From: an uncultured Enterobacterales bacterium
Lineage (GTDB): Bacteria > Myxococcota_A > UBA796 > JAFGLY01
Reading direction: 5' to 3'
Length of the DNA: 64,000 bases
NCBI GenBank assembly: GCA_964512185.1
Contig: CAZEJJ010000011.1
Location: forward strand, 5,131 to 69,130
The position numbers and the translations under genes were made by a program. The notes under the pieces were generated by a model that saw only the letters and a program-made list of their open reading frames with translations, made no database searches and was not told where the DNA came from. Within the stretch, counting starts at the first letter, position 1. Every line of letters starts with the position of its first letter. Below are positions 1 to 36,093 of this stretch, in pieces.

Positions 1-7110
<7,110 letters not shown>

Positions 7111-7127
7111 GTCCTTGGTTCTCCGTG

Positions 7128-8765
7128 TCAGGAGGCTGGGAAGAATGCCGTGAGCTGCCGCGCCACGAGGTCCATGTCCTCGACCAGGCCGTGCTGGACG
7201 CCGATCACCGCCTGCAGGCCGAGGCTGTCGGCCAGATCGGGGTCTTTCTGGCCCGCGCCCACCGCGAGCTGGAGCCCGTTCCAGGCGACCTTCCAGGCCG
7301 CGTCCCGGGCGTGCAGCCGCGCCATGGCCCGGACGAGGGGCAGATCGAGATCCAGGGCGCCGCAGAGCCCCTGGGAGGCTCGCTCGCAGAGCACCGCGGC
7401 GGTCTCCGCCAGGGTGATCAGCTCACCCAGCCGCAGCAGGACGTGCTGGCTGCGGGTCAGCCGATCCAGCCGGCAGCGCTCCAGCAGGGTGGCCAGGGCC
7501 GCCAGGCACAGGGACGCAGCCTCGGCACCGCAGCCGGGCGCCGCGTCTGAGATCTCGCTCAGCCGGGCGGCCCACTGGCGGTAGTGCTGGCCGCGGGACT
7601 TGAGGTGCAGCTGCCAGCGGTCCCTGGCGATGGTGCGCTCCAGGATCTCGGAGGTGCCCTCGTAGATGGTGGTGATGCGCACGTCCCGCTTGATCTTCTC
7701 AACCATGTACTCGCGCGTGTAGCCGTAGCCGCCCAGGGCCTGGATGGCGTCCTCGGCGGCCTTGTTCCCCGCCTCGGTGGCCAGGTACTTGGCCACGGCG
7801 CCCTCGGTGGCCAGGCCCTCTTCGCCAGCGTCCAGGCGCTCGGCGGTCCACTCGATGTAGGCCCGCGCGGCCTCCAGCCTGACGGCGTTGGGCACGATCA
7901 GCTTGTGGGTGAAGCCCTGCTTGTCGCACAGCAGGGAGCCACCCTGATGCCGCTCCTGGGAGTACCGGATGGCGCGCTCCAGGGCGGCCCAGCCGGCCCC
8001 GAGGCCGAAGGCCGCCACCATCAGGCGGGTGTAGCCGAACACCGCCGCAGCCTGGGCCAGGCCCTGCCCCTCGACCCCACCCACCAGCCGGTCGGCGGGC
8101 ACGAACACGTCCTCCAGGAACAGGGCCGCGGTGTTGCTTGCCCGCAGGCCGTGCTTCTCCTCCGGCTTGCCGCAGTCGAAGCCCTCGGTGGGGCGCTCCA
8201 CCACGAACCACGAGGGGCCACCAGGCGCGAGTGCCAGGATGGTGTACAGGGACGCCACCCCGCCGTTGCTGATCCACTGCTTGCGGCCCGTGATGCGGTA
8301 GCCAGGGCCGTGGCCGTTGTCCTCGACCGGCACCGCGCGGGTCTGCAGCAGGGAGAGGTCGCTGCCCGCCTGCGGCTCGGTGGCGCCGTAGGCCACCAGC
8401 AGGCCTTCCGCGGCGATGCGTCCCATCCAGTGCTCCTTCTGCTCCTCGGTGCCGCCCACGATGATCGGATCGGTGCCGAGGAAGGTGGCCAGCACCGCGG
8501 TGGAGATCCCCAGGTCGATCCCGGCGAGGGTCTCGGCCACGCGGTAGATATCGTAGGCCCCCGCGCCGAAGCCGCCGTGCTCCTCGGGCAGGAAGAGCAG
8601 GTGGATCCCCAGGGCCCCGGGATCGTACAGCCGGTCCAACACCTCCTGGGGGAACTCGTCCCGCTCGTCAAGGGCGAGCAGGTACTCCGGTGTCAGCTCG
8701 CGCTCGGAGTACGTCACGAGGGACGACAGGATCATGTCCAGGGTCTCTCTGTCCAAACCAGGCAT
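7128..8765 (-). CDS. Acyl-CoA dehydrogenase family protein (545 aa, long C-terminal extension)
   Basis: [41 protein letters not shown]. Its stop lies 18 nt upstream of the synthase ATG on the same strand. Confidence 0.85.
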
Positions 8766-28239: not shown

Positions 28240-28677
28240 ATGCCCATTAAGCCTTTGCGCATCTGCATCGCGTACGACAATGCCCGTGGCCACTGCGGGC
28301 GCGTGGTGCCGCGCATGAAGGAGCTGCTGGAGCATCGCGCCTTCCTGGTGGACACCCACGACATCAGCCAGGGCACGGTGGAGATCGAGCAGTACGACGC
28401 CCTGATCCTCGGCACGCCGGTCTTCGGCCTGGGCATCCGTGGTCAGGGCCCCACAGCCAGCATGCGGGCGTTCATCTCCGCGCTGCCTGACCTGGACGAG
28501 ACCAGGGTGGCCATCTTCTGCGCCTATGAGTCCCGCCCTGGCAATACCTTCGACCGGATGAAGAACATCCTGTTCGAGAAGGGCGCCCAGTTCGTGGCCC
28601 AGCACGCCTTCTGGATCCTGCGGCCCCACGAGGGCGACCACATCATCCCGGCGGAGTGCATGGTGCGCGTGCGCTAG
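28240..28677 (+). CDS. Flavodoxin-like fold protein
   Basis: ICIAYDNARGHCGRV, YDALILGTPVFG, VAIFCAYESRPG. Confidence 0.65.
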   Translation: MPIKPLRICIAYDNARGHCGRVVPRMKELLEHRAFLVDTHDISQGTVEIEQYDALILGTPVFGLGIRGQGPTASMRAFISALPDLDETRVAIFCAYESRPGNTFDRMKNILFEKGAQFVAQHAFWILRPHEGDHIIPAECMVRVR

Positions 28678-28970
28678 CAGCTGTAGCCGCCGCCCAGGCT
28701 CACGGTGAACTGCTTCCAGAAGCGGTTGAAGTCGACCTGGAGCTCGGTGCCGCCGCGCAGCCAGCTGCGGATCTCGCGGGGGATGAGAAAGGTGACCCCG
28801 CCTTGTTCGTGGCGCTCGTCGTCCTGCCTGGGCTCATCCAGAGCCAGCCCCATGCGGGGCCCCCCTCAGCCGAAGCCCTGGATGACGATGCGGAAGGCCC
28901 TGTCCTGGACCTGTTGGGCTTCCATGACCGCTTTGAGCTGGCTGGCGGCCTGGGTGCTGATGGACAACAT
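28674..28970 (-). CDS. HesB/IscA-like protein with an in-frame UGA (candidate selenocysteine), 98 codons
   Basis: ATG at 28968-28970 preceded by GGAG. MLSISTQAASQLKAVMEAQQVQDRAFRIVIQGFG-TGA(28866-28868)-GGPRMGLALDEPRQDDERHEQGGVTFLIPREIRSWLRGGTELQVDFNRFWKQFTVSLGGGYSC, then TAG. The same frame and GC3 bias continue after the TGA. The TGA aligns to the Cys of the IscA motif GCSG. Confidence 0.55.
28826..28849 (-). promoter_or_regulatory. Candidate bacterial SECIS hairpin
   Basis: The mRNA GGCUGGCUC-UGGAU-GAGCCCAGGC starts 17 nt after the UGA. It has 7 pairs with one bulged C and an apical loop containing GG. Folded by eye only. Confidence 0.35.
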
Positions 28971-29192
28971 GCTGGCTCCGTCGGCTAGTGGGCGGCCGGG
29001 GGCCGCCTGTCTTCGAGCGATAGAGTCATCGGGTCCCGGCACTGTTACGGGCGCGGGCATGCGGGGGCCGGATTTTCTGTGCGCCGGGGTGGCGCGGGCG
29101 GCTCTTTGTGCTACTCCGGCGCTGTGCCGTCACGGGAGACGGCCTCTGCCTCGTCGGGAGCTACCCCGACCGACGCGATCACTGGAGGAACC

Positions 29193-29678
<486 letters not shown>

Positions 29679-30702: not shown

Positions 30703-33700
30703 CTACTCCGACCGCAGGAGTCTGGCGAGGGCGCGGCCCGTGTGGCTGTGGGGATGCTGCGCCAGCTGTCGAGGGCTGCCTGTGGCGAGGATGGTTCCGC
30801 CCTCGTCGCCGCCCTCCGGGCCCAGGTCCACCAGGTGGTCCGCGGCGCGGATCAGCTCCAGGTTGTGCTCGATGAGCACCACGGTGTCGCCGCGCTCCAC
30901 CAGGCTCTGCAGCACCTGCAGTAGCTGGGCCACGTCTGCCGGGTGCAGGCCGGTGGTGGGCTCGTCCAGGAGATAGATGGTGCCCTTGCCGCGGCCCGCC
31001 AGCTCCAGCGCAAGCTTGACCCGCTGGGCCTCACCCCCGGAGAGGGTGTCGGCGGGGCGGCCCAGCTCCAGGTAGCCGAGGCCTACCTGCACCAGGCTGC
31101 GCAGCACGCGGGCCAGGGAGCGCTGGTTGGCGAAGAGCTCCAGGGCCTGCTCGGCGGGCATGGCCAGCACCTGGGAGATGTCATGGCCCTGCCAGCGCAC
31201 GTCGAGCACGCGCTCCCGGTAGCGGCGGCCGCCGCAGTCGTCGCATGGAATCCACACATCCGAGAGAAAGTGCATCTCCACCAGCACTGCGCCGCGGCCC
31301 TGGCAGCCGGGGCAGCCTCCGTCGCGGTTGTAGGAGAAGTCCGCCGGGGTGAGGCCCCGTGTCTGGGCGGCGGGCAGGCGGGTGAACAGGCCGCGCAGCG
31401 GGCCCAGCAGCTTGGTGTAGGTGGCCGGGCAGGAGCGGGGCGAGCGGCCGATGGGCGCGTGGTCCACCACCACCGCGCGCTGCAGGTCGGGGGGCAGCAG
31501 CAGCTCACCGGCCGGCAGGGCGCGGCCCTGGGCGCCGTGCAGGACCTGCCGCAGTCGGGGGGCGAGGGTGTCCATGATCAGGCTGCTCTTGCCCGAGCCG
31601 GAGACGCCGGTGACCACGGTGAGGGCGCCGGTGGGCAGGCAAAGGTCCACGCCCTGCAGGTTGTGGCCCCTGGCCTCCATGAGGCGGATGGGTGGCCCCC
31701 CGGTGCGGGGCTCGTCGGGTGTGGGCAGGCGCGCTCGACCCGCCAGCCAGGCGCCGGTGATACTGCGCGGATCCGCCGCGATGGCTGCGGGGGTGCCGGC
31801 GGCCACCAGCCGCCCCCCCTGGCTACCCGGCCCCGGCCCCAGGTCCAGCACGTGGTCCGCGCGTCGGATGGTGTCGAGATCGTGCTCCACCAGCACCACC
31901 GTGTTGCCCAGGTCGCGCAGGCCCTCCAGGGTGTCGAGCAGGCGGCCCACGTCGCGGGGATGCAGGCCGATGGTGGGCTCGTCGAGCACGTACAGGGTGC
32001 CCGTGAGGCGGTTGCCCAGCTGCCCGGCCAGCCGGATGCGCTGGGCTTCTCCGCCGGAGAGCGTGTGACCGCGGCGGTCCAGGTTCAGGTAGTCGAGGCC
32101 CACGTCGCGCAGGAAGCCCAGCCGCGCGAGCAGCTCGGGGAGCAGCTGCGCGACGATCTGGCGCTCCCGCGGGCTCAGGACCAGGGCTTCGGTCCATGCC
32201 AGGGCTCTCCGCACGGTCATGCGGGTGAACTCGGCGATGTCGAGCCCGCCCACCCGCACCCCCAGGGAGGGGGCCTTGAGCCGCCTGCCCTCGCAGCGCG
32301 GGCAGGGGTTCCTGGCGTCGGCCTTGGTCTCGCCGCCGCTGCGCGTGACCCCCAGACCGTCGCAGGCCGGGCAGGCGCCCACGTGGCTGTTGAAGGAGAA
32401 GTGCCGCGGGGTGGGCTGCTCGGGCAGCACCGCGCCGTGCTCGGGGCACTCGGCGCGCATGGAGAGGGTGAGGGGGGCTCCCTGGCGAGGCAGGAAGGCT
32501 GCCCGGTCGCCGCCGTAGCCGTAGGCCAGGCGCAGGGCGTCGGCTGCGCGGTCGGCGGGAGCCCTGGCGGGGTCGAGGCGGTCGATCACCAGGGTGCAGC
32601 CGTCGGCCAGCAGGGACAGGGCCTCGGGGCTGTCGAGATCCAGGTCCTGCTGTCCGGTCCATAGGCGCCTGAGCCCGTCGCCAGCGAGCTCTGCCTGGCG
32701 GGCAGCGGGATCGGCAGCTGCGGGCAGGGTGGTGACGATGCGTCCGGCGCCGGGGGCCTGCTCCGCGAGCCAGCGCGCTCCCGACGAGGGATCGAGCCCC
32801 AGCACGAGGCGCCCGCAGAGGTGGCAGTGGGGCCGGCCGATGCGGGCCCAGAGCAGGCGCAGCAGGTCGTAGACCTCGGTCACCGTGGCCACGGTGGAGC
32901 GTGGGTTGTGGGCGGCCTTGCGTTGCTCGATGGCGATGGAGGGAGCGAGCCCTTCGATGGAGTCCACCGGGGCGCGGTCCAGGCGGCCCAGGAAGCGCCG
33001 GGCGTAGGTGCTCAGGCTCTCCACGTAGCGGCGCTGGCCTTCGGAGAAGAGGGTGTGCAGCGCCAGGGAGGACTTGCCGGAGCCCGACACGCCGGTGACC
33101 ACAGTGAGCTTGCCCTGGGGGATGCTGACGTCGATGCCCTGGAGGTTGTGCCGCCTGGCCCCGCGCACGACGATGTCGCGCGCCCCGCGTGTGCCGGCCC
33201 GGTAGGGGGCAGGGGCCTGCGCCGCCATGGGCAGCGCGCCCCCCCCCCCCCCCCCCCCGCGCAGGGGGGCCCCCCCCCCCCCTGTGGGGGTGTCGAGGGT
33301 GGCGATGACCTCGGGGGTTCCCTCACCCACCAGCTGTCCGCCAGCGTCTCCACCCCCGGGACCCAGGTCGATGACCTGATCGGCCACCTTGATGACGTCG
33401 GTGTTGTGCTCGATGATGACGACGGTGTTGCCCGCGCTCACCAGGGCCTGCAGGGCCTCCAGCAGGCGCTCGATGTCGGCGAAGTGCAGGCCCGTGGTGG
33501 GCTCGTCCAGCAGGTAGAGGGTGCGCCCCGTGGGCGGGCGCTGCAGCTCGCGCGCCAGCTTGATGCGCTGGGCCTCGCCGCCGGAGAGGGTGGAGGAGGG
33601 CTGACCCAGCTCCACGTAGCCCAGGCCCACCTGCTCCAGGGCCGCCAGGGGGCGGTGGATGCTCCGGTGGTTGCGGAAGAACTCCGTGGCTTCGGTGACG

Positions 33701-36093
33701 CTCATGGCGAGCACGTCGGTGATGGTGCGGCCCCGGTAGCGGATCTGGAGGGTCTCGGGGTTGAAGCGCTTACCGCCGCAGTCCTCGCAGGGCACGTGCA
33801 CGTCGGCCAGGAACTGCATCTCAAGCACCTGCACACCGGCCCCCTGGCAGGACTCGCAGCGACCGCCGTGCACGTTGAAGGAGAAGCGGCCCGGCTTGTA
33901 TCCGCGGGCCGCCGACTCGGGCAGGCGCGCGAAGAGCTCGCGGATGCCGGTGAGGGCCCCGGTGTAGGTGGCGGGGTTGGAGCGCGGGGTGCGGCCGATG
34001 GGATCCTGGTCGATGCAGATGACCTTGTCGAGGTGCTGCAGGCCCTGGATCCCGCCGTGGGCCAGGGGTTCGCGCTGGGCCCCCTGGAGCGCCCTGGCCG
34101 CCGCCGGCTCGAGGATGTCCAGCAGCAGGGTGGACTTGCCGGAGCCCGAGACGCCGGTGAGCACGGTGAGGGTGCCCAGACGCAGGGAGACGTCGATGCG
34201 CTGCAGGTTATGGGCGCTCGCGCCGCGGATCGCGAGGCGCTCGCCGTTGCCTTCGCGCCGCCTGGAGGGCATGGGGATGGAGCGCTCGCCGCGCAGGTAG
34301 CGGGCCGTGAGACAGTCGCTGCGCAGGAAGGCCCCGGGGGCGCCCTGGGAGGTGATCCGGCCACCGGAGCGCCCGGCGCCCGGGCCGATCTCCACCAGCT
34401 CGTCGGCGGCGCGCATGGTCTCGGCGTCGTGCTCCACCACCAGCACCGAGTTGCCTCGGTCGCGCAGGCTGAGCAGGGTGTCCAGCAGGCGCCGGTTGTC
34501 GCGCGGGTGTAGCCCGATGCTGGGCTCGTCCAGGATGTAGGTGACCCCCTGCAGCCCGCTGCCCACCTGGGCGGCCAGGCGGATGCGCTGCGCCTCGCCG
34601 CCCGAGAGGCTGGCGGTGGCTCGATCGATGCCCAGGTAGCCCAGGCCCACGTCGTCGAGGAAGCGCAGGCGGTGCCGCAGCTCTCCCAGGATGGGCTGGC
34701 CCAGCGGCCGCTGCGCTTCGTCCAGCTGGATGGCGTCGAAGAAGGCCCGCGCGTCGGCGACGCTCAGGGACACCAGCTCGGGCAGGCTCCTGCCGCGGAA
34801 GCTGACCGCGCGCGCCAGGGGGTTGAGGCGGGTGCCCTCGCAGGAGCCGCAGGGGTCGTGTCGCCGGAAAGCCTGCAGGGGCCGGTGGCGGGTGAAGCGC
34901 CAGATGCGCCCCAGCATGTGCATGAGGCCGGTCCAGCGGCGGGTGACCTGGCGCCGGCGGCCGCCGCCGGTCTTGATCACCGTGTATTCGAGATCGGCCC
35001 CGTGCAGGATGGCCCGCTGGATCTGGGCGGGCTGCTGGCCCCAGGCCAGCTCGGGATCGGCGCTCAGGGCCCGCAGCACCTGGCGCAGCACGCCCTCGTC
35101 CACCGTGGTGAGGAAGGGCAGGTGGCCGTGCTTGAAGGCCCGGCAGGCGCTGGCGGTGGGCGCCTGCGGGTCCATGACCAGCTCGGGCTGGAAGGCCTCC
35201 AGGTGGCCCAGGCCGTCGCACTCGGGGCAGGCCCCCTGAGGGGTGTTGAAGGAGAAGAGGCGGGGCTCCAGCTCGGGAAGGTAGACATCGTGGTCGGGAC
35301 AGCCGCGCTCGGTGGCGAAGCTGCGGTGGCGCTCGCCCAGCAGCAGCGTGACGACGCCCTTGCCCATGGCCAGGCCCTTCTCGATGGCCTCCAGCAGGCG
35401 ACCGCGGCGCTCCGGATCCAGCCGCAGGCGGTCCATCACCACCTCGATGCTGTGCTTCTCGTAGCGAGCCAGGCCGATGGGTTCGTCCAGGCGCCCGAGC
35501 TGGCCGTCGATCCGAGCGCGGGTGTAGCCCTCGGCCAGCAGGTCAGCCAGCTCGCGGCGATACTCGCCTTTGCGCTCCTGGACCAGGGGGCCCATGACGA
35601 TGGTGTCGATGCCAGCGTGCTCCTGGAGCAACCGATCGGCGATGGCCCCGGGGGTGGAGCTGGTGATGGGCTTGGAGCACACCGGGCAGTGGGCGGTGCC
35701 CAGGCGCGCCATCCACAGGCGCAGGTGGTCGAGGATCTCCGTGACGGTGCCCACGGTGGAGCGCGGGTTGCGGTTGACGCCTTTTTGATGGATGGCCAGG
35801 GTGGGGGAGAGCCCCTCTACACGCTCCACCCTGGGTTTCTCCATCTTGCCCAGGAACTGGCGCGCGTAGGCGGAGAGGGACTCCAGGTACCGGCGCTGTC
35901 CTTCCTGGTAGAGGGTGTCGAAGGCCAGCGACGACTTGCCGCTGCCCGACAGCCCGGTGATCACCACCAGCGCGTCACGCCGCAGGTCCACGTCCACACC
36001 GCGCAGGTTGTGCTCGCGGGCGCCTCGCACGAGGATGTGGCGGTGGCTGTCGGTCATGATGGAACATATGTCCAGTTGGCGACCCGCGGGCAA
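30703..36093 (-). CDS. Tandem-fused double UvrA-family ABC ATPase (1796 aa from the TTG at 36093; the ATG at 36057 gives MTDSHRH...)
   Basis: Module 1: [54 protein letters not shown], ending [14 protein letters not shown]. Module 2: [54 protein letters not shown], ending [15 protein letters not shown]. Confidence 0.8.
33234..33282. repeat. Homopolymer junction: C20 (33239-33258), G6 (33264-33269), C13 (33270-33282)
   Basis: Counted directly. In the gene frame it encodes [19 protein letters not shown] between the two UvrA modules. An ATG (33226-33228) follows immediately. Confidence 0.9.
36062..36073. promoter_or_regulatory. GAAC-N4-GTTC-like palindrome (GGACATATGTTC on the minus strand), a candidate SOS/LexA-type operator
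   Basis: One mismatch to GAAC-N4-GTTC. It lies 5-16 nt upstream of the uvrA-like ATG at 36057. Confidence 0.3.

What the first reader, a model, noticed from the sequence alone, without database searches (positions are those of the whole stretch)
28674..28970. HesB/IscA-like gene with an in-frame TGA at the conserved Cys position: candidate selenoprotein missed by ORF calling
The ORF track stops at TGA 28866-28868 (...FRIVIQGFG). The same frame continues for 63 more GC3-rich codons to a TAG at 28674-28676. It gives GGPRMGLALDEP...GVTFLIP...LQVDF...GGGYSC, which aligns along the IscA/HesB fold. The TGA falls exactly where IscA has the cluster-ligand Cys (LRLGVRTSGCSG versus FRIVIQGFG-U-GG). A HesB-like selenoprotein family with Sec at this position is already described (the TIGRFAMs model HesB_rel_seleno). 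A hairpin with a GG-containing loop starts 17 nt after the UGA. A flavodoxin-like gene converges on it. No sel genes are in this window.
Basis: partly seen in the sequence, partly recalled or inferred. Interest (0 to 1): 0.65.

Follow-up and report, generated by a model that had tools for sequence, protein, structure and literature searches.

The report
Unannotated HesB/IscA-like selenoprotein gene
A 98-codon gene for a small iron-sulfur-carrier-like protein has a UGA at its key cysteine position that is almost certainly read as selenocysteine, so gene callers split it in two; it belongs to an already described selenoprotein family and is a solid but ordinary find.

Summary
On the minus strand, ATG 28970 to TAG 28674 is one 98-codon frame interrupted only by TGA 28868-28866. 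GC3 is 0.91 before the TGA and 0.92 after it. The read-through product matches the two NCBIfam models linked to HesB/IscA-like selenoproteins. The TGA aligns with the first cluster-ligand Cys of solved IscA/ErpA structures, and the motif U-G-G-P fits the published UxGP motif.

Relatives settle the question. All 62 related genome loci, and 101 of 103 distinct metagenome matches to a pattern allowing TGA, TGC or TGT, carry TGA at this codon. All have an open, conserved downstream frame. Cys homologs exist. Twenty nucleotides after the UGA lies the hairpin GGCUC-UGGAY-GAGCC. Its synonymous sites are frozen in all 154 distinct TGA forms, across loci of 35-72% GC, while neighbouring four-fold sites vary. 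Four of six Cys forms deviate there. This behaves as a SECIS element.

Caveats: the window holds no selA, selB, selD or tRNA-Sec, so Sec decoding in this organism is inferred. This clade scores below both curated cut-offs (58 vs 85 bits; 36 vs 66). Verdict: a new, divergent member of a known selenoprotein kind. Its biochemical function is unknown.

The parts
28674..28970 (-). Complete HesB/IscA-like selenoprotein gene: 98 codons (34 + Sec + 63) plus TAG stop
   Evidence: Searches give the sequence and translation. GC3 is 0.91 before and 0.92 after the TGA. Public gene callers split it into 34-aa and 59-aa ORFs. Homologs span the junction.
28968..28970 (-). Inferred start codon ATG. The ORF track's upstream ATG at 29060 is probably not used.
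   Evidence: N-termini of relatives align here (MLRISSKA, MVRISANA, MLDITESA). GC3 drops to 0.63 upstream.
28976..28979 (-). Shine-Dalgarno-like GGAG, 5 nt before the ATG
   Evidence: Read directly. This is an inference only.
28866..28868 (-). In-frame TGA = predicted selenocysteine codon (residue 35)
   Evidence: TGA is at the homologous codon in 62 of 62 genome loci and 101 of 103 distinct metagenome matches. It aligns with IscA Cys35. The motif U-G-G-P matches the published UxGP.
28831..28845 (-). Core SECIS-like hairpin GGCUC-UGGAU-GAGCC. The loop is 28836-28840. It is embedded in the codons for L-A-L-D-E-P.
   Evidence: Ala GCU, Leu CUG and Glu GAG are invariant in 154 of 154 distinct TGA forms, while flanking four-fold sites vary. 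GCT is only 5.9% of Ala codons in this window. Four of six Cys forms deviate, Fisher p = 5.7e-7.
28846..28861 (-). Possible auxiliary or lower helix (GGCCCC-GCAU-GGGGCU) between the UGA and the core hairpin
   Evidence: It appears in the MFE and centroid folds. Pro codon CCC is used in 137 of 154 forms, and the base at the third position of the fifth codon after Sec pairs with it in 141 of 154 (CCC/GGG pairing). There is no covariation, so the evidence is weak.
28677..28679 (-). C-terminal Cys98 codon (TGC), the only other Cys in the protein
   Evidence: A Cys in the C-terminal tail (C, CC, CxC or similar) is invariant in the family alignment. It lies near the position of the CxC ligand motif of A-type carriers (the tail itself is not aligned).
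28240..28677 (+). Convergent flavodoxin-domain gene whose 3' end overlaps the selenoprotein gene by 4 nt. It is a conserved neighbour within this lineage only.
   Evidence: Pfam Flavodoxin_5, 32.5 bits. Synteny is kept in L006 and L009-L012 at 70-74% aa identity, but not in the Myxococcota loci L007 and L008.

Best explanation
The region is one gene for a 98-residue selenoprotein of the HesB/IscA (A-type Fe-S carrier) fold.

Decoding (inferred). When the ribosome reaches UGA35, SelB carrying Sec-tRNA(Sec) is recruited by a SECIS stem-loop. This stem-loop, GGCUC-UGGAU-GAGCC, starts 20 nt downstream inside the codons for L-A-L-D-E-P. Selenocysteine is inserted instead of terminating translation.

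Product (shown by alignment). Sec sits at the position of the first cluster-ligand Cys of IscA (Cys35 in E. coli). A single Cys is the last residue.

Activity (inferred from family knowledge). The most likely activity is binding and transfer of iron or an Fe-S cluster, or another thiophilic ligand, between Sec35 and Cys98 across a dimer. A Sec35-Cys98 selenenylsulfide redox couple is the alternative.
For: - Continuous coding signal through the TGA.
- Identical sequence in four or more independent assemblies.
- NCBIfam matches: NF038090 at 58 bits and TIGR01911 at 36 bits.
- The Sec column aligns with the ligand Cys in 2apn, 1nwb, 1x0g and 1s98.
- TGA is at the same codon in 62 of 62 genome loci from Myxococcota, Desulfomonilaceae, Syntrophales, Neobacillus and others. 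It is also there in 101 of 103 distinct metagenome hits to a pattern that allowed TGA, TGC or TGT and all synonymous codons.
- Cys homologs with CGGPxLGLALDEP exist.
- The hairpin's synonymous sites are invariant in 154 of 154 TGA forms, although locus GC ranges from 35% to 72%. They are relaxed in 4 of 6 Cys forms.
- Members with the same motif and hairpin pass the NF038090 cut-off: L076 at 105 bits, L079 at 112, L078 at 93.
- Five sister species (57-67% aa identity in the aligned stretches, conserved synteny) keep the TGA, hairpin and frame.
- TGA is an ordinary stop for 13 of 22 confident genes in the window, so the genetic code is standard.
- Literature: the HesB-like selenoprotein has the UxGP motif (PMC13188914). 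It was confirmed by 75Se labelling in Methanococcus maripaludis (PMC11097638). [quoted passage not shown]
Against: - No selA, selB, selD or tRNA-Sec lies in the 64-kb window. The rest of the genome is not available.
- Scores are below the curated cut-offs of both selenoprotein models and of Pfam PF01521.
- The single-sequence fold is not more stable than shuffles (z = +0.88).
- No Rfam family matches.
- The core stem never varies, so there is no compensatory covariation. Lower-stem pairing is inconsistent.
- The core stem has only 5 bp.
- Only one C-terminal Cys is present instead of the CxC of canonical A-type carriers. Fe-S binding is untested for any member, and the M. maripaludis mutant had no reported phenotype in nitrogen fixation.
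Confidence: 0.9

Rival explanations
1. It is a pseudogene: an IscA/HesB-like gene inactivated by a nonsense mutation (Cys TGY to TGA), with the downstream frame decaying.
For: The TGA is one mutation away from TGC or TGT. No Sec machinery lies in the window. Pairwise dN/dS against the nearest relatives is uninformative, with ratios roughly 0.4-1.2 (up to ~3 for a 12-codon upstream stretch) under extreme GC3 bias.
Against: The same TGA, with an intact 58-67 codon downstream frame (one outlier of 84) and a conserved C-terminal Cys, occurs in 154 distinct sequences across several phyla. GC3 is 0.92 downstream. Five sister species with about 70% identical neighbours keep it.
Confidence: 0.02
2. 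The gene family is a true selenoprotein, but this organism has lost Sec decoding. Only the 34-residue N-terminal peptide is made, or the 59-residue C-terminal ORF from ATG 28853 is translated separately, as the gene callers annotate it.
For: Sec machinery could not be examined. Public pipelines-aa and 59-aa ORFs. The Met five codons after the Sec codon gives a usable start in this sequence. That codon is ATG in 83 of 154 forms.
Against: Neither half matches the fold alone: the N-terminal half hits no family and the C-terminal half only weakly. The hairpin and TGA are preserved in this sequence and in five sister species, which would not persist without Sec decoding. In many relatives the codon at that position is Leu, Phe, Trp or Val rather than Met, so an internal start is not conserved.
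Confidence: 0.04
3. The UGA is recoded, but not as Sec. Either a near-cognate tRNA (Trp, Cys or Arg) reads through, stimulated by the downstream hairpin, or the organism reads TGA as Trp or Gly.
For: Several database entries show W at this position. Hairpins downstream of stop codons can promote read-through (general knowledge).
Against: The W entries translate with a stop under table 11. Their W is a pipeline artefact of a TGA=Trp code on short contigs. TGA ends 13 of 22 confident genes in the window. Homologs carry Cys, not Trp, at this column. The family is an experimentally labelled selenoprotein elsewhere. The loop carries the conserved G typical of SelB-binding elements.
Confidence: 0.04

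Closest known systems
NCBIfam NF038090 IscA_HesB_Se (IscA/HesB family protein; members scored here include TGA-encoded Sec forms and a Cys form)
   Same: It is the best-scoring model (E 8e-16). Members that pass its cut-off (L076, L078, L079) carry the same G-U-GGP-x-h-GLALDEP motif and the identical GGCUCUGGAYGAGCC hairpin. Length is the same, about 95-110 aa, with a Cys-containing C-terminal tail.
   Different: The window protein scores 58.2 bits against a cut-off of 85. All ten representatives tested from the M-GLALDEP genome set fall at 49-65 bits. The window clade has a distinct C-terminal half (FLIPxEIxxW...VDFNRYWxxFxVxLGG) and a single terminal Cys rather than CxC or CC.
TIGR01911 HesB_rel_seleno, the 'HesB-like' selenoprotein of Kryukov/Zhang/Gladyshev, shown by 75Se labelling in Methanococcus maripaludis
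   Same: Sec replaces the first conserved Cys of the HesB/IscA domain. The published motif UxGP equals U-G-G-P here. It is a small single-domain protein of unknown function.
   Different: The score is 36.2 bits against a cut-off of 66.35. Neobacillus-type members come closest at 57.7 bits. None of the sequences tested here reached this cut-off.
A-type Fe-S cluster carriers IscA, SufA and ErpA (Pfam PF01521; PDB 1s98, 1r94, 1x0g, 2apn, 1nwb)
   Same: The fold-level profile match is E 1e-10 to 2apn. The Sec column equals the ligand Cys35 of IscA, and the DEP/D-E acidic stretch after it is shared.
   Different: This protein uses Sec instead of Cys and has GGP after it instead of SG. It has one terminal Cys instead of C-x-C followed by several more residues. 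The single sequence is below the Pfam cut-off (17.6 vs 26.3 bits).
Bacterial SECIS elements (E. coli fdhF type; bSECISearch consensus)
   Same: It is a stem-loop inside the coding region just 3' of the UGA, with a small apical loop containing G (for the published feature). The loop starts 25 nt after the UGA. That lies inside the 16-37 nt range of the bSECISearch model as I recall it (own knowledge, not checked here).
   Different: The invariant core has only 5 bp with a 5-nt loop UGGAY. No bulged U or GU loop as in fdhF is evident. No Rfam model covers it. SelB binding is untested.

Membership tests
Bacterial selenoprotein gene (general criteria) | In-frame UGA conserved at the same codon in orthologs, with a conserved coding frame on both sides | tested here: met
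   62 of 62 genome loci and 101 of 103 metagenome pattern hits carry TGA. Downstream frames of 58-67 codons (one outlier of 84) stay open and conserved. GC3 is 0.91 and 0.92 on the two sides.
Bacterial selenoprotein gene (general criteria) | Homologs with Cys aligned to the UGA codon | tested here: met
   P0044, P0049, P0058, P0079, P0087, P0101 and P0133 have C-GGP-x-L-GLALDE. L184 and L190 carry TGC and TGT.
Bacterial selenoprotein gene (general criteria) | SECIS stem-loop shortly downstream of the UGA with G in a small apical loop | tested here: met
   The hairpin lies at 28845-28831 with loop UGGAU. Its synonymous sites are invariant in 154 of 154 Sec forms and relaxed in 4 of 6 Cys forms, p = 5.7e-7. 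The support is conservation, not covariation. SelB binding was not tested.
Bacterial selenoprotein gene (general criteria) | Genome encodes selA, selB, selC (tRNA-Sec) and selD | not testable with these tools
   None lies in the 64-kb window. One relative (Desulfomonile sp. M47, L042) has a SelB homolog 3 kb from its copy.
Bacterial selenoprotein gene (general criteria) | Selenium shown in the protein (75Se labelling or MS) | not testable with these tools
   This has been reported only for the M. maripaludis HesB-like protein (PMC11097638).
NF038090 IscA_HesB_Se | HMM score at or above the curated cut-off (85 bits) | tested here: not met
   The score is 58.2 bits with U replaced by C. Sister sequences score 49-65 bits. 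Other TGA members with the same motif pass at 93-112 bits.
TIGR01911 HesB_rel_seleno | HMM score at or above the curated cut-off (66.35 bits) | tested here: not met
   The score is 36.2 bits.
TIGR01911 HesB_rel_seleno | Sec/Cys at the conserved first Cys of the HesB domain, motif UxGP | tested here: met
   U-G-G-P is at residues 35-38. The motif is given in PMC13188914 Table 1. The column aligns with IscA Cys35.
A-type Fe-S carrier (IscA/SufA/ErpA, PF01521) | Pfam gathering score (26.3 bits) | tested here: not met
   The single sequence scores 17.6 bits. The family profile does match solved IscA/ErpA chains, E 1e-10 to 1e-3.
A-type Fe-S carrier (IscA/SufA/ErpA, PF01521) | Three ligand cysteines C-x(n)-C-x-C | tested here: not met
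   Only Sec35 and the terminal Cys98 are present in the window protein. Other clades of the Sec family end in CC, CSC or CGC.
A-type Fe-S carrier (IscA/SufA/ErpA, PF01521) | Binds and transfers Fe or Fe-S clusters | not testable with these tools
   No biochemical data exist for any HesB-like selenoprotein. Its function is 'not clear'.

The most novel reading that the evidence does not exclude
The window protein may represent a distinct, so far unmodelled clade of HesB-like selenoproteins. Its features are a single terminal Cys, a Trp-rich C-terminal half, and high-GC MAG lineages including Myxococcota. This clade is systematically lost from annotation: it is split into 34-aa and 59-aa ORFs, or mistranslated with Trp.

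More broadly, the U-GGP-x-h-GLALDEP group may be an almost obligately Sec-using family (101 TGA against 2 TGY among pattern matches). Its 15-nt SECIS core is identical from Bacillota to Myxococcota and coincides with the most conserved peptide motif. If so, RNA and protein constraints are locked together, and the element may work with SelB proteins of very different bacteria.
Probability: 0.3. Interest if true: 0.45.

Novelty: new member of a known kind. Interest (0 to 1): 0.3.

Why it matters
For this contig, two meaningless 'hypothetical' mini-ORFs become one interpretable gene. The result also implies that the organism decodes UGA as Sec, a trait not visible from the window itself.

More generally, the scan shows that many public protein entries for this family are artefacts. 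Some are C-terminal fragments starting at MGLALDEP. Others are full-length entries with a false Trp. The two curated models also miss whole clades.

The invariant GGCUCUGGAYGAGCC hairpin gives a simple, specific DNA signature for recovering these genes. It is also a compact candidate SECIS for testing SelB recognition across phyla.

None of this changes what is known about selenoprotein biology. The family, the Sec position and the Sec/Cys interchange were described about 20 years ago.

Tried and rejected
1. A word-indexed protein search with the U-to-C full-length protein found only the window's own 59-aa fragment. It was superseded by the exhaustive HMMER search with the 59-aa fragment and by a profile search.
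The same restriction covers structure prediction of the window protein, so I did not attempt it.
3. The search for related loci with a 20-sequence alignment failed for lack of a conserved stretch. It was repeated with four sequences starting after the Sec codon.
4. The single-sequence RNA fold has z = +0.88 against shuffles and is not informative in 71% GC sequence.
5. Rfam gave nothing relevant at gathering threshold on the whole window, nor at E<=10 on the local region.
6. Lower-stem extension and covariation around the core hairpin are inconsistent (0-3 extra pairs). The upstream CCC/GGG helix shows codon preference but no covariation.
7. Nei-Gojobori dN/dS against the nearest relatives is uninformative because GC3 is near saturation.
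8. A scan of the window for other TGA-interrupted frames with coding signal on both sides found only two ordinary pairs of adjacent same-frame genes (22294 and 36147). There is no second selenoprotein candidate.
9. A tRNA scan of 60 related loci found no tRNA-Sec next to the gene.
Record titles of the closest MAGs disagree (Enterobacterales, proteobacterium, Pseudomonadota).
11. No sigma-70-like promoter or intrinsic terminator lies around the gene.

Full report
**1. What is in the sequence**

On the minus strand an ATG at 28970 opens a frame that reads MLSISTQAASQLKAVMEAQQVQDRAFRIVIQGFG. It then meets TGA at 28868-28866. The same frame continues for 63 codons (GGPRMGLALDEPRQDDERHEQGGVTFLIPREIRSWLRGGTELQVDFNRFWKQFTVSLGGGYSC) to TAG at 28676-28674.

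The window is 71% G+C, and real genes have GC3 near 0.9. GC by codon position is 0.59/0.38/0.91 before the TGA and 0.68/0.48/0.92 after it, in one frame. The 30 in-frame codons upstream of ATG 28970 have GC3 of only 0.63.

The true start is therefore ATG 28970, preceded by GGAG at 28979-28976. The ATG at 29060 used by the ORF list is probably not the start. The long ORF on the plus strand (28656-28988) has the antisense signature, with GC 0.90 at position 1 and 0.64 at position 3.

The locus is base-for-base identical in contigs from at least four independent metagenome assemblies. In each, gene callers annotated a 34-aa ORF and a 59-aa ORF. The TGA is therefore not a sequencing error.

**2. 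What the product resembles**

With Sec written as Cys, the 98-residue product matches these models:

| Model | E-value | Bits | Curated cut-off |
|---|---|---|---|
| NCBIfam NF038090 IscA_HesB_Se | 8e-16 | 58.2 | 85 |
| TIGR00049 (Fe-S accessory protein) | 5e-9 | 36.4 | 58.8 |
| TIGR01911 HesB_rel_seleno | 7e-9 | 36.2 | 66.35 |
| Pfam PF01521 Fe-S_biosyn | 0.005 | 17.6 | 26.3 |

ErpA, SufA and IscA models match more weakly. The N-terminal 34 residues alone match nothing, and the C-terminal 59 residues match only weakly.

A profile of the family matches solved A-type carriers. These are 2apn (HI1723, E 1e-10), 1nwb, 1x0g (IscA of T. elongatus) and 1s98/1r94 (E. coli IscA). In every alignment the Sec column falls on the Cys of '...GGGCSG...' or 'RTSGCSG', which is Cys35 of IscA.

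A 2026 review lists the HesB-like selenoprotein (TIGR01911) with the motif UxGP (PMC13188914). The window has U-G-G-P.

**3. Relatives**

An exhaustive HMMER search with the 59-aa C-terminal ORF found about 20 clusters of 57-63-aa 'proteins'. Nearly all start at the same MGLALDEP. This means the same split occurs in the relatives.

Reading their DNA through the stop gave QGFG-TGA-GGPRMGLALDEP with a homologous N-terminal part in three divergent loci. A scan of one genome per GTDB species with the peptide MGLALDEP returned 62 loci. Their record titles name Myxococcota, Desulfomonilaceae, Syntrophales, Thermodesulfobacteriota, Neobacillus and several loosely labelled MAGs. All 62 have TGA exactly five codons upstream. 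All have a 30-39 codon N-terminal part and a downstream frame of 58-67 codons (one outlier, L020, has 84), with a Cys at or within two residues of the C-terminus in all but that outlier.

A metagenome scan then used a DNA pattern that allowed TGA, TGC or TGT and every synonymous codon of GGP-xx-GLALDEP.

A profile search found contiguous Cys homologs, such as P0079 'IscA/HesB family protein [Desulforhopalus sp.]' with GGCGGPSLGLALDEP. It also found many entries with Trp at the Sec position. Two of those were checked and have a stop there under table 11. Their W is a pipeline artefact of a TGA=Trp code on short contigs.

The classical comparative criteria for a selenoprotein gene are therefore met: a conserved in-frame UGA, conservation on both sides, and Sec/Cys pairs.

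**4. The RNA element**

Across 154 distinct TGA forms, the nucleotides at +21 to +35 after the UGA read GGCUC-UGGAY-GAGCC.

- Frozen synonymous sites: the third position of the Ala codon (always U), the first and third positions of the second Leu codon (always CUG), and the third position of the Glu codon (always G) never vary.
- Nearly frozen: the third position of the first Leu codon is G in 149 of 154.
- Free sites: the four-fold sites just outside (Gly before, Pro after) use all four bases.

This holds in loci from 35% G+C (Neobacillus) to 72%. In the window itself GCT is only 5.9% of Ala codons and GAT 16% of Asp codons, yet both are used here.

Of six Cys forms, four deviate at these sites (GCC, UUA, UUG, GAA). 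Two keep the hairpin. The contrast with 0 of 154 gives Fisher p = 5.7e-7. Zhang et al. 2006 describe SECIS-like 'fossil' structures in Cys-containing HesB-like genes (PMC1794560), which fits the two that keep it.

This is selection on the RNA, not on the protein. The element has the published hallmarks of bacterial SECIS elements: a stem-loop just 3' of the UGA and a small apical loop with a guanosine (PMC1088965).

Weaknesses:
- The core stem is only 5 bp and invariant, so there is no compensatory covariation.
- Extra pairs below the core are inconsistent.
- A second helix between the UGA and the core (CCC/GGG) is suggested only by codon preference.
- The single-sequence fold is not exceptional.
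- Rfam has no matching model.

In the window the core is 28845-28831 with loop 28840-28836.

**5. Is UGA decoded in this organism?**

This cannot be shown directly. The window has no tRNA gene. It has no tblastn match to E. coli SelA, SelB or SelD, whereas the same search found a SelB homolog 3 kb from the HesB-like gene of a Desulfomonile MAG. A scan for other TGA-interrupted coding frames found no second candidate.

The indirect evidence is good:
- TGA is the normal stop of 13 of 22 confident genes, so the code is standard.
- Five other species of the same lineage (L006, L009-L012) have neighbours 60-75% identical in protein. They share the order double-UvrA, lipoprotein-like ORF, HesB-Sec, convergent flavodoxin-domain gene, SH3 protein.
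- All five keep the TGA, the hairpin and the frame.

A gene that could not be decoded would not survive that divergence.

**6. Mechanism and function**

- Shown: gene anatomy, conservation, and alignment of Sec with the ligand Cys.
- Inferred: SelB/SECIS-dependent insertion of Sec at residue 35.
- Inferred from family knowledge: an A-type-carrier-like dimer holds iron or an Fe-S cluster between Sec35 and the terminal Cys98. This gives two ligands per monomer instead of the three Cys of IscA. The alternative is a Sec-Cys redox couple.

No HesB-like selenoprotein has a known function. The M. maripaludis protein was confirmed by mutagenesis and 75Se labelling, but its role 'is not clear' (PMC11097638). 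The flavodoxin-domain neighbour converges on the gene, overlaps its 3' end by 4 nt, and is conserved only inside this lineage. It is weak evidence for a functional link.

**7. Comparison with what is known, and novelty**

The family (HesB-like selenoprotein), the Sec position and Sec/Cys interchange were described from 2004 to 2006 and are in curated model libraries.

Membership is at the level of the broader family. Members with the identical motif and hairpin pass NF038090 (93-112 bits). The window protein and all ten tested representatives of the M-GLALDEP genome set fall below both curated cut-offs. The window clade also ends in one Cys.

I therefore file it as a new, divergent member of a known kind. 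The points of modest interest are three:
- The gene is systematically mis-annotated in public data.
- The curated models miss whole clades.
- The 15-nt SECIS core is identical across phyla and coincides with the most conserved peptide motif.

**8. Verdict**

Confidence that this is a Sec-encoding HesB/IscA-like gene is about 0.9. Interest is 0.3.

Noticed in passing
window 1-7422 (-), runs off the left end: A giant open frame of more than 2474 codons (GC3 0.93) carries KS, AT, ACP (two PP-binding stretches) and KR domains. It looks like a polyketide or PUFA-synthase-like megasynthase. The ORF listing does not show it because it runs off the window.
   Followed up: partly
window 30703-36093 (-): A 1796-residue UvrA-like ORF is about twice normal UvrA length. 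It has UvrA_inter, UvrA DNA-binding and several ABC ATPase modules. It is conserved at about 72% identity next to the HesB-like gene in L012.
   Followed up: partly
proteins P0026-P0043; loci L198 61-357 and L199 201-479: Many public protein entries of this family show Trp at the Sec position. The two I checked have a stop there under table 11, so the pipelines translated short contigs with a TGA=Trp code. JGI names some of these entries 'HesB-like selenoprotein'.
   Followed up: yes
L194 301-630 and L197 301-606: Two Cys-containing homologs (TGT) still carry the exact GGCUCUGGAUGAGCC hairpin. This fits recent Sec-to-Cys conversion that leaves a 'fossil' SECIS.
   Followed up: partly
L042 3667-5544 (Desulfomonile sp. 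M47): A full-length SelB homolog (31% identical to E. coli SelB over 639 aligned positions) lies about 3 kb upstream of that genome's HesB-like selenoprotein gene (TGA at 8625). It was the only Sec-machinery gene seen near any of the 62 loci.
   Followed up: no
L050 TGA at 8321 and 9998; also L024+L027 and L021+L035 (same MAGs): Some genomes carry two copies of the selenoprotein gene. One MAG labelled Bacillus sp. has two copies about 1.7 kb apart. Two MAGs labelled Rickettsiales, but with about 70% GC, have copies on separate contigs.
   Followed up: no
window 29193-29678 (+): A 161-residue ORF is divergent from the selenoprotein gene. It has a lipoprotein-like signal (…LVGC), an acidic (D-A/T-D)n repeat and a Cys-rich C-terminal half. 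It has no Pfam match and is conserved in L012 (68%) and L010 (54%).
   Followed up: partly
window 22294 and 36147: At two places, adjacent genes lie in the same frame separated by a single TGA with coding signal on both sides. Each downstream gene has its own start codon, so these look like ordinary gene junctions, not selenoproteins.
   Followed up: partly
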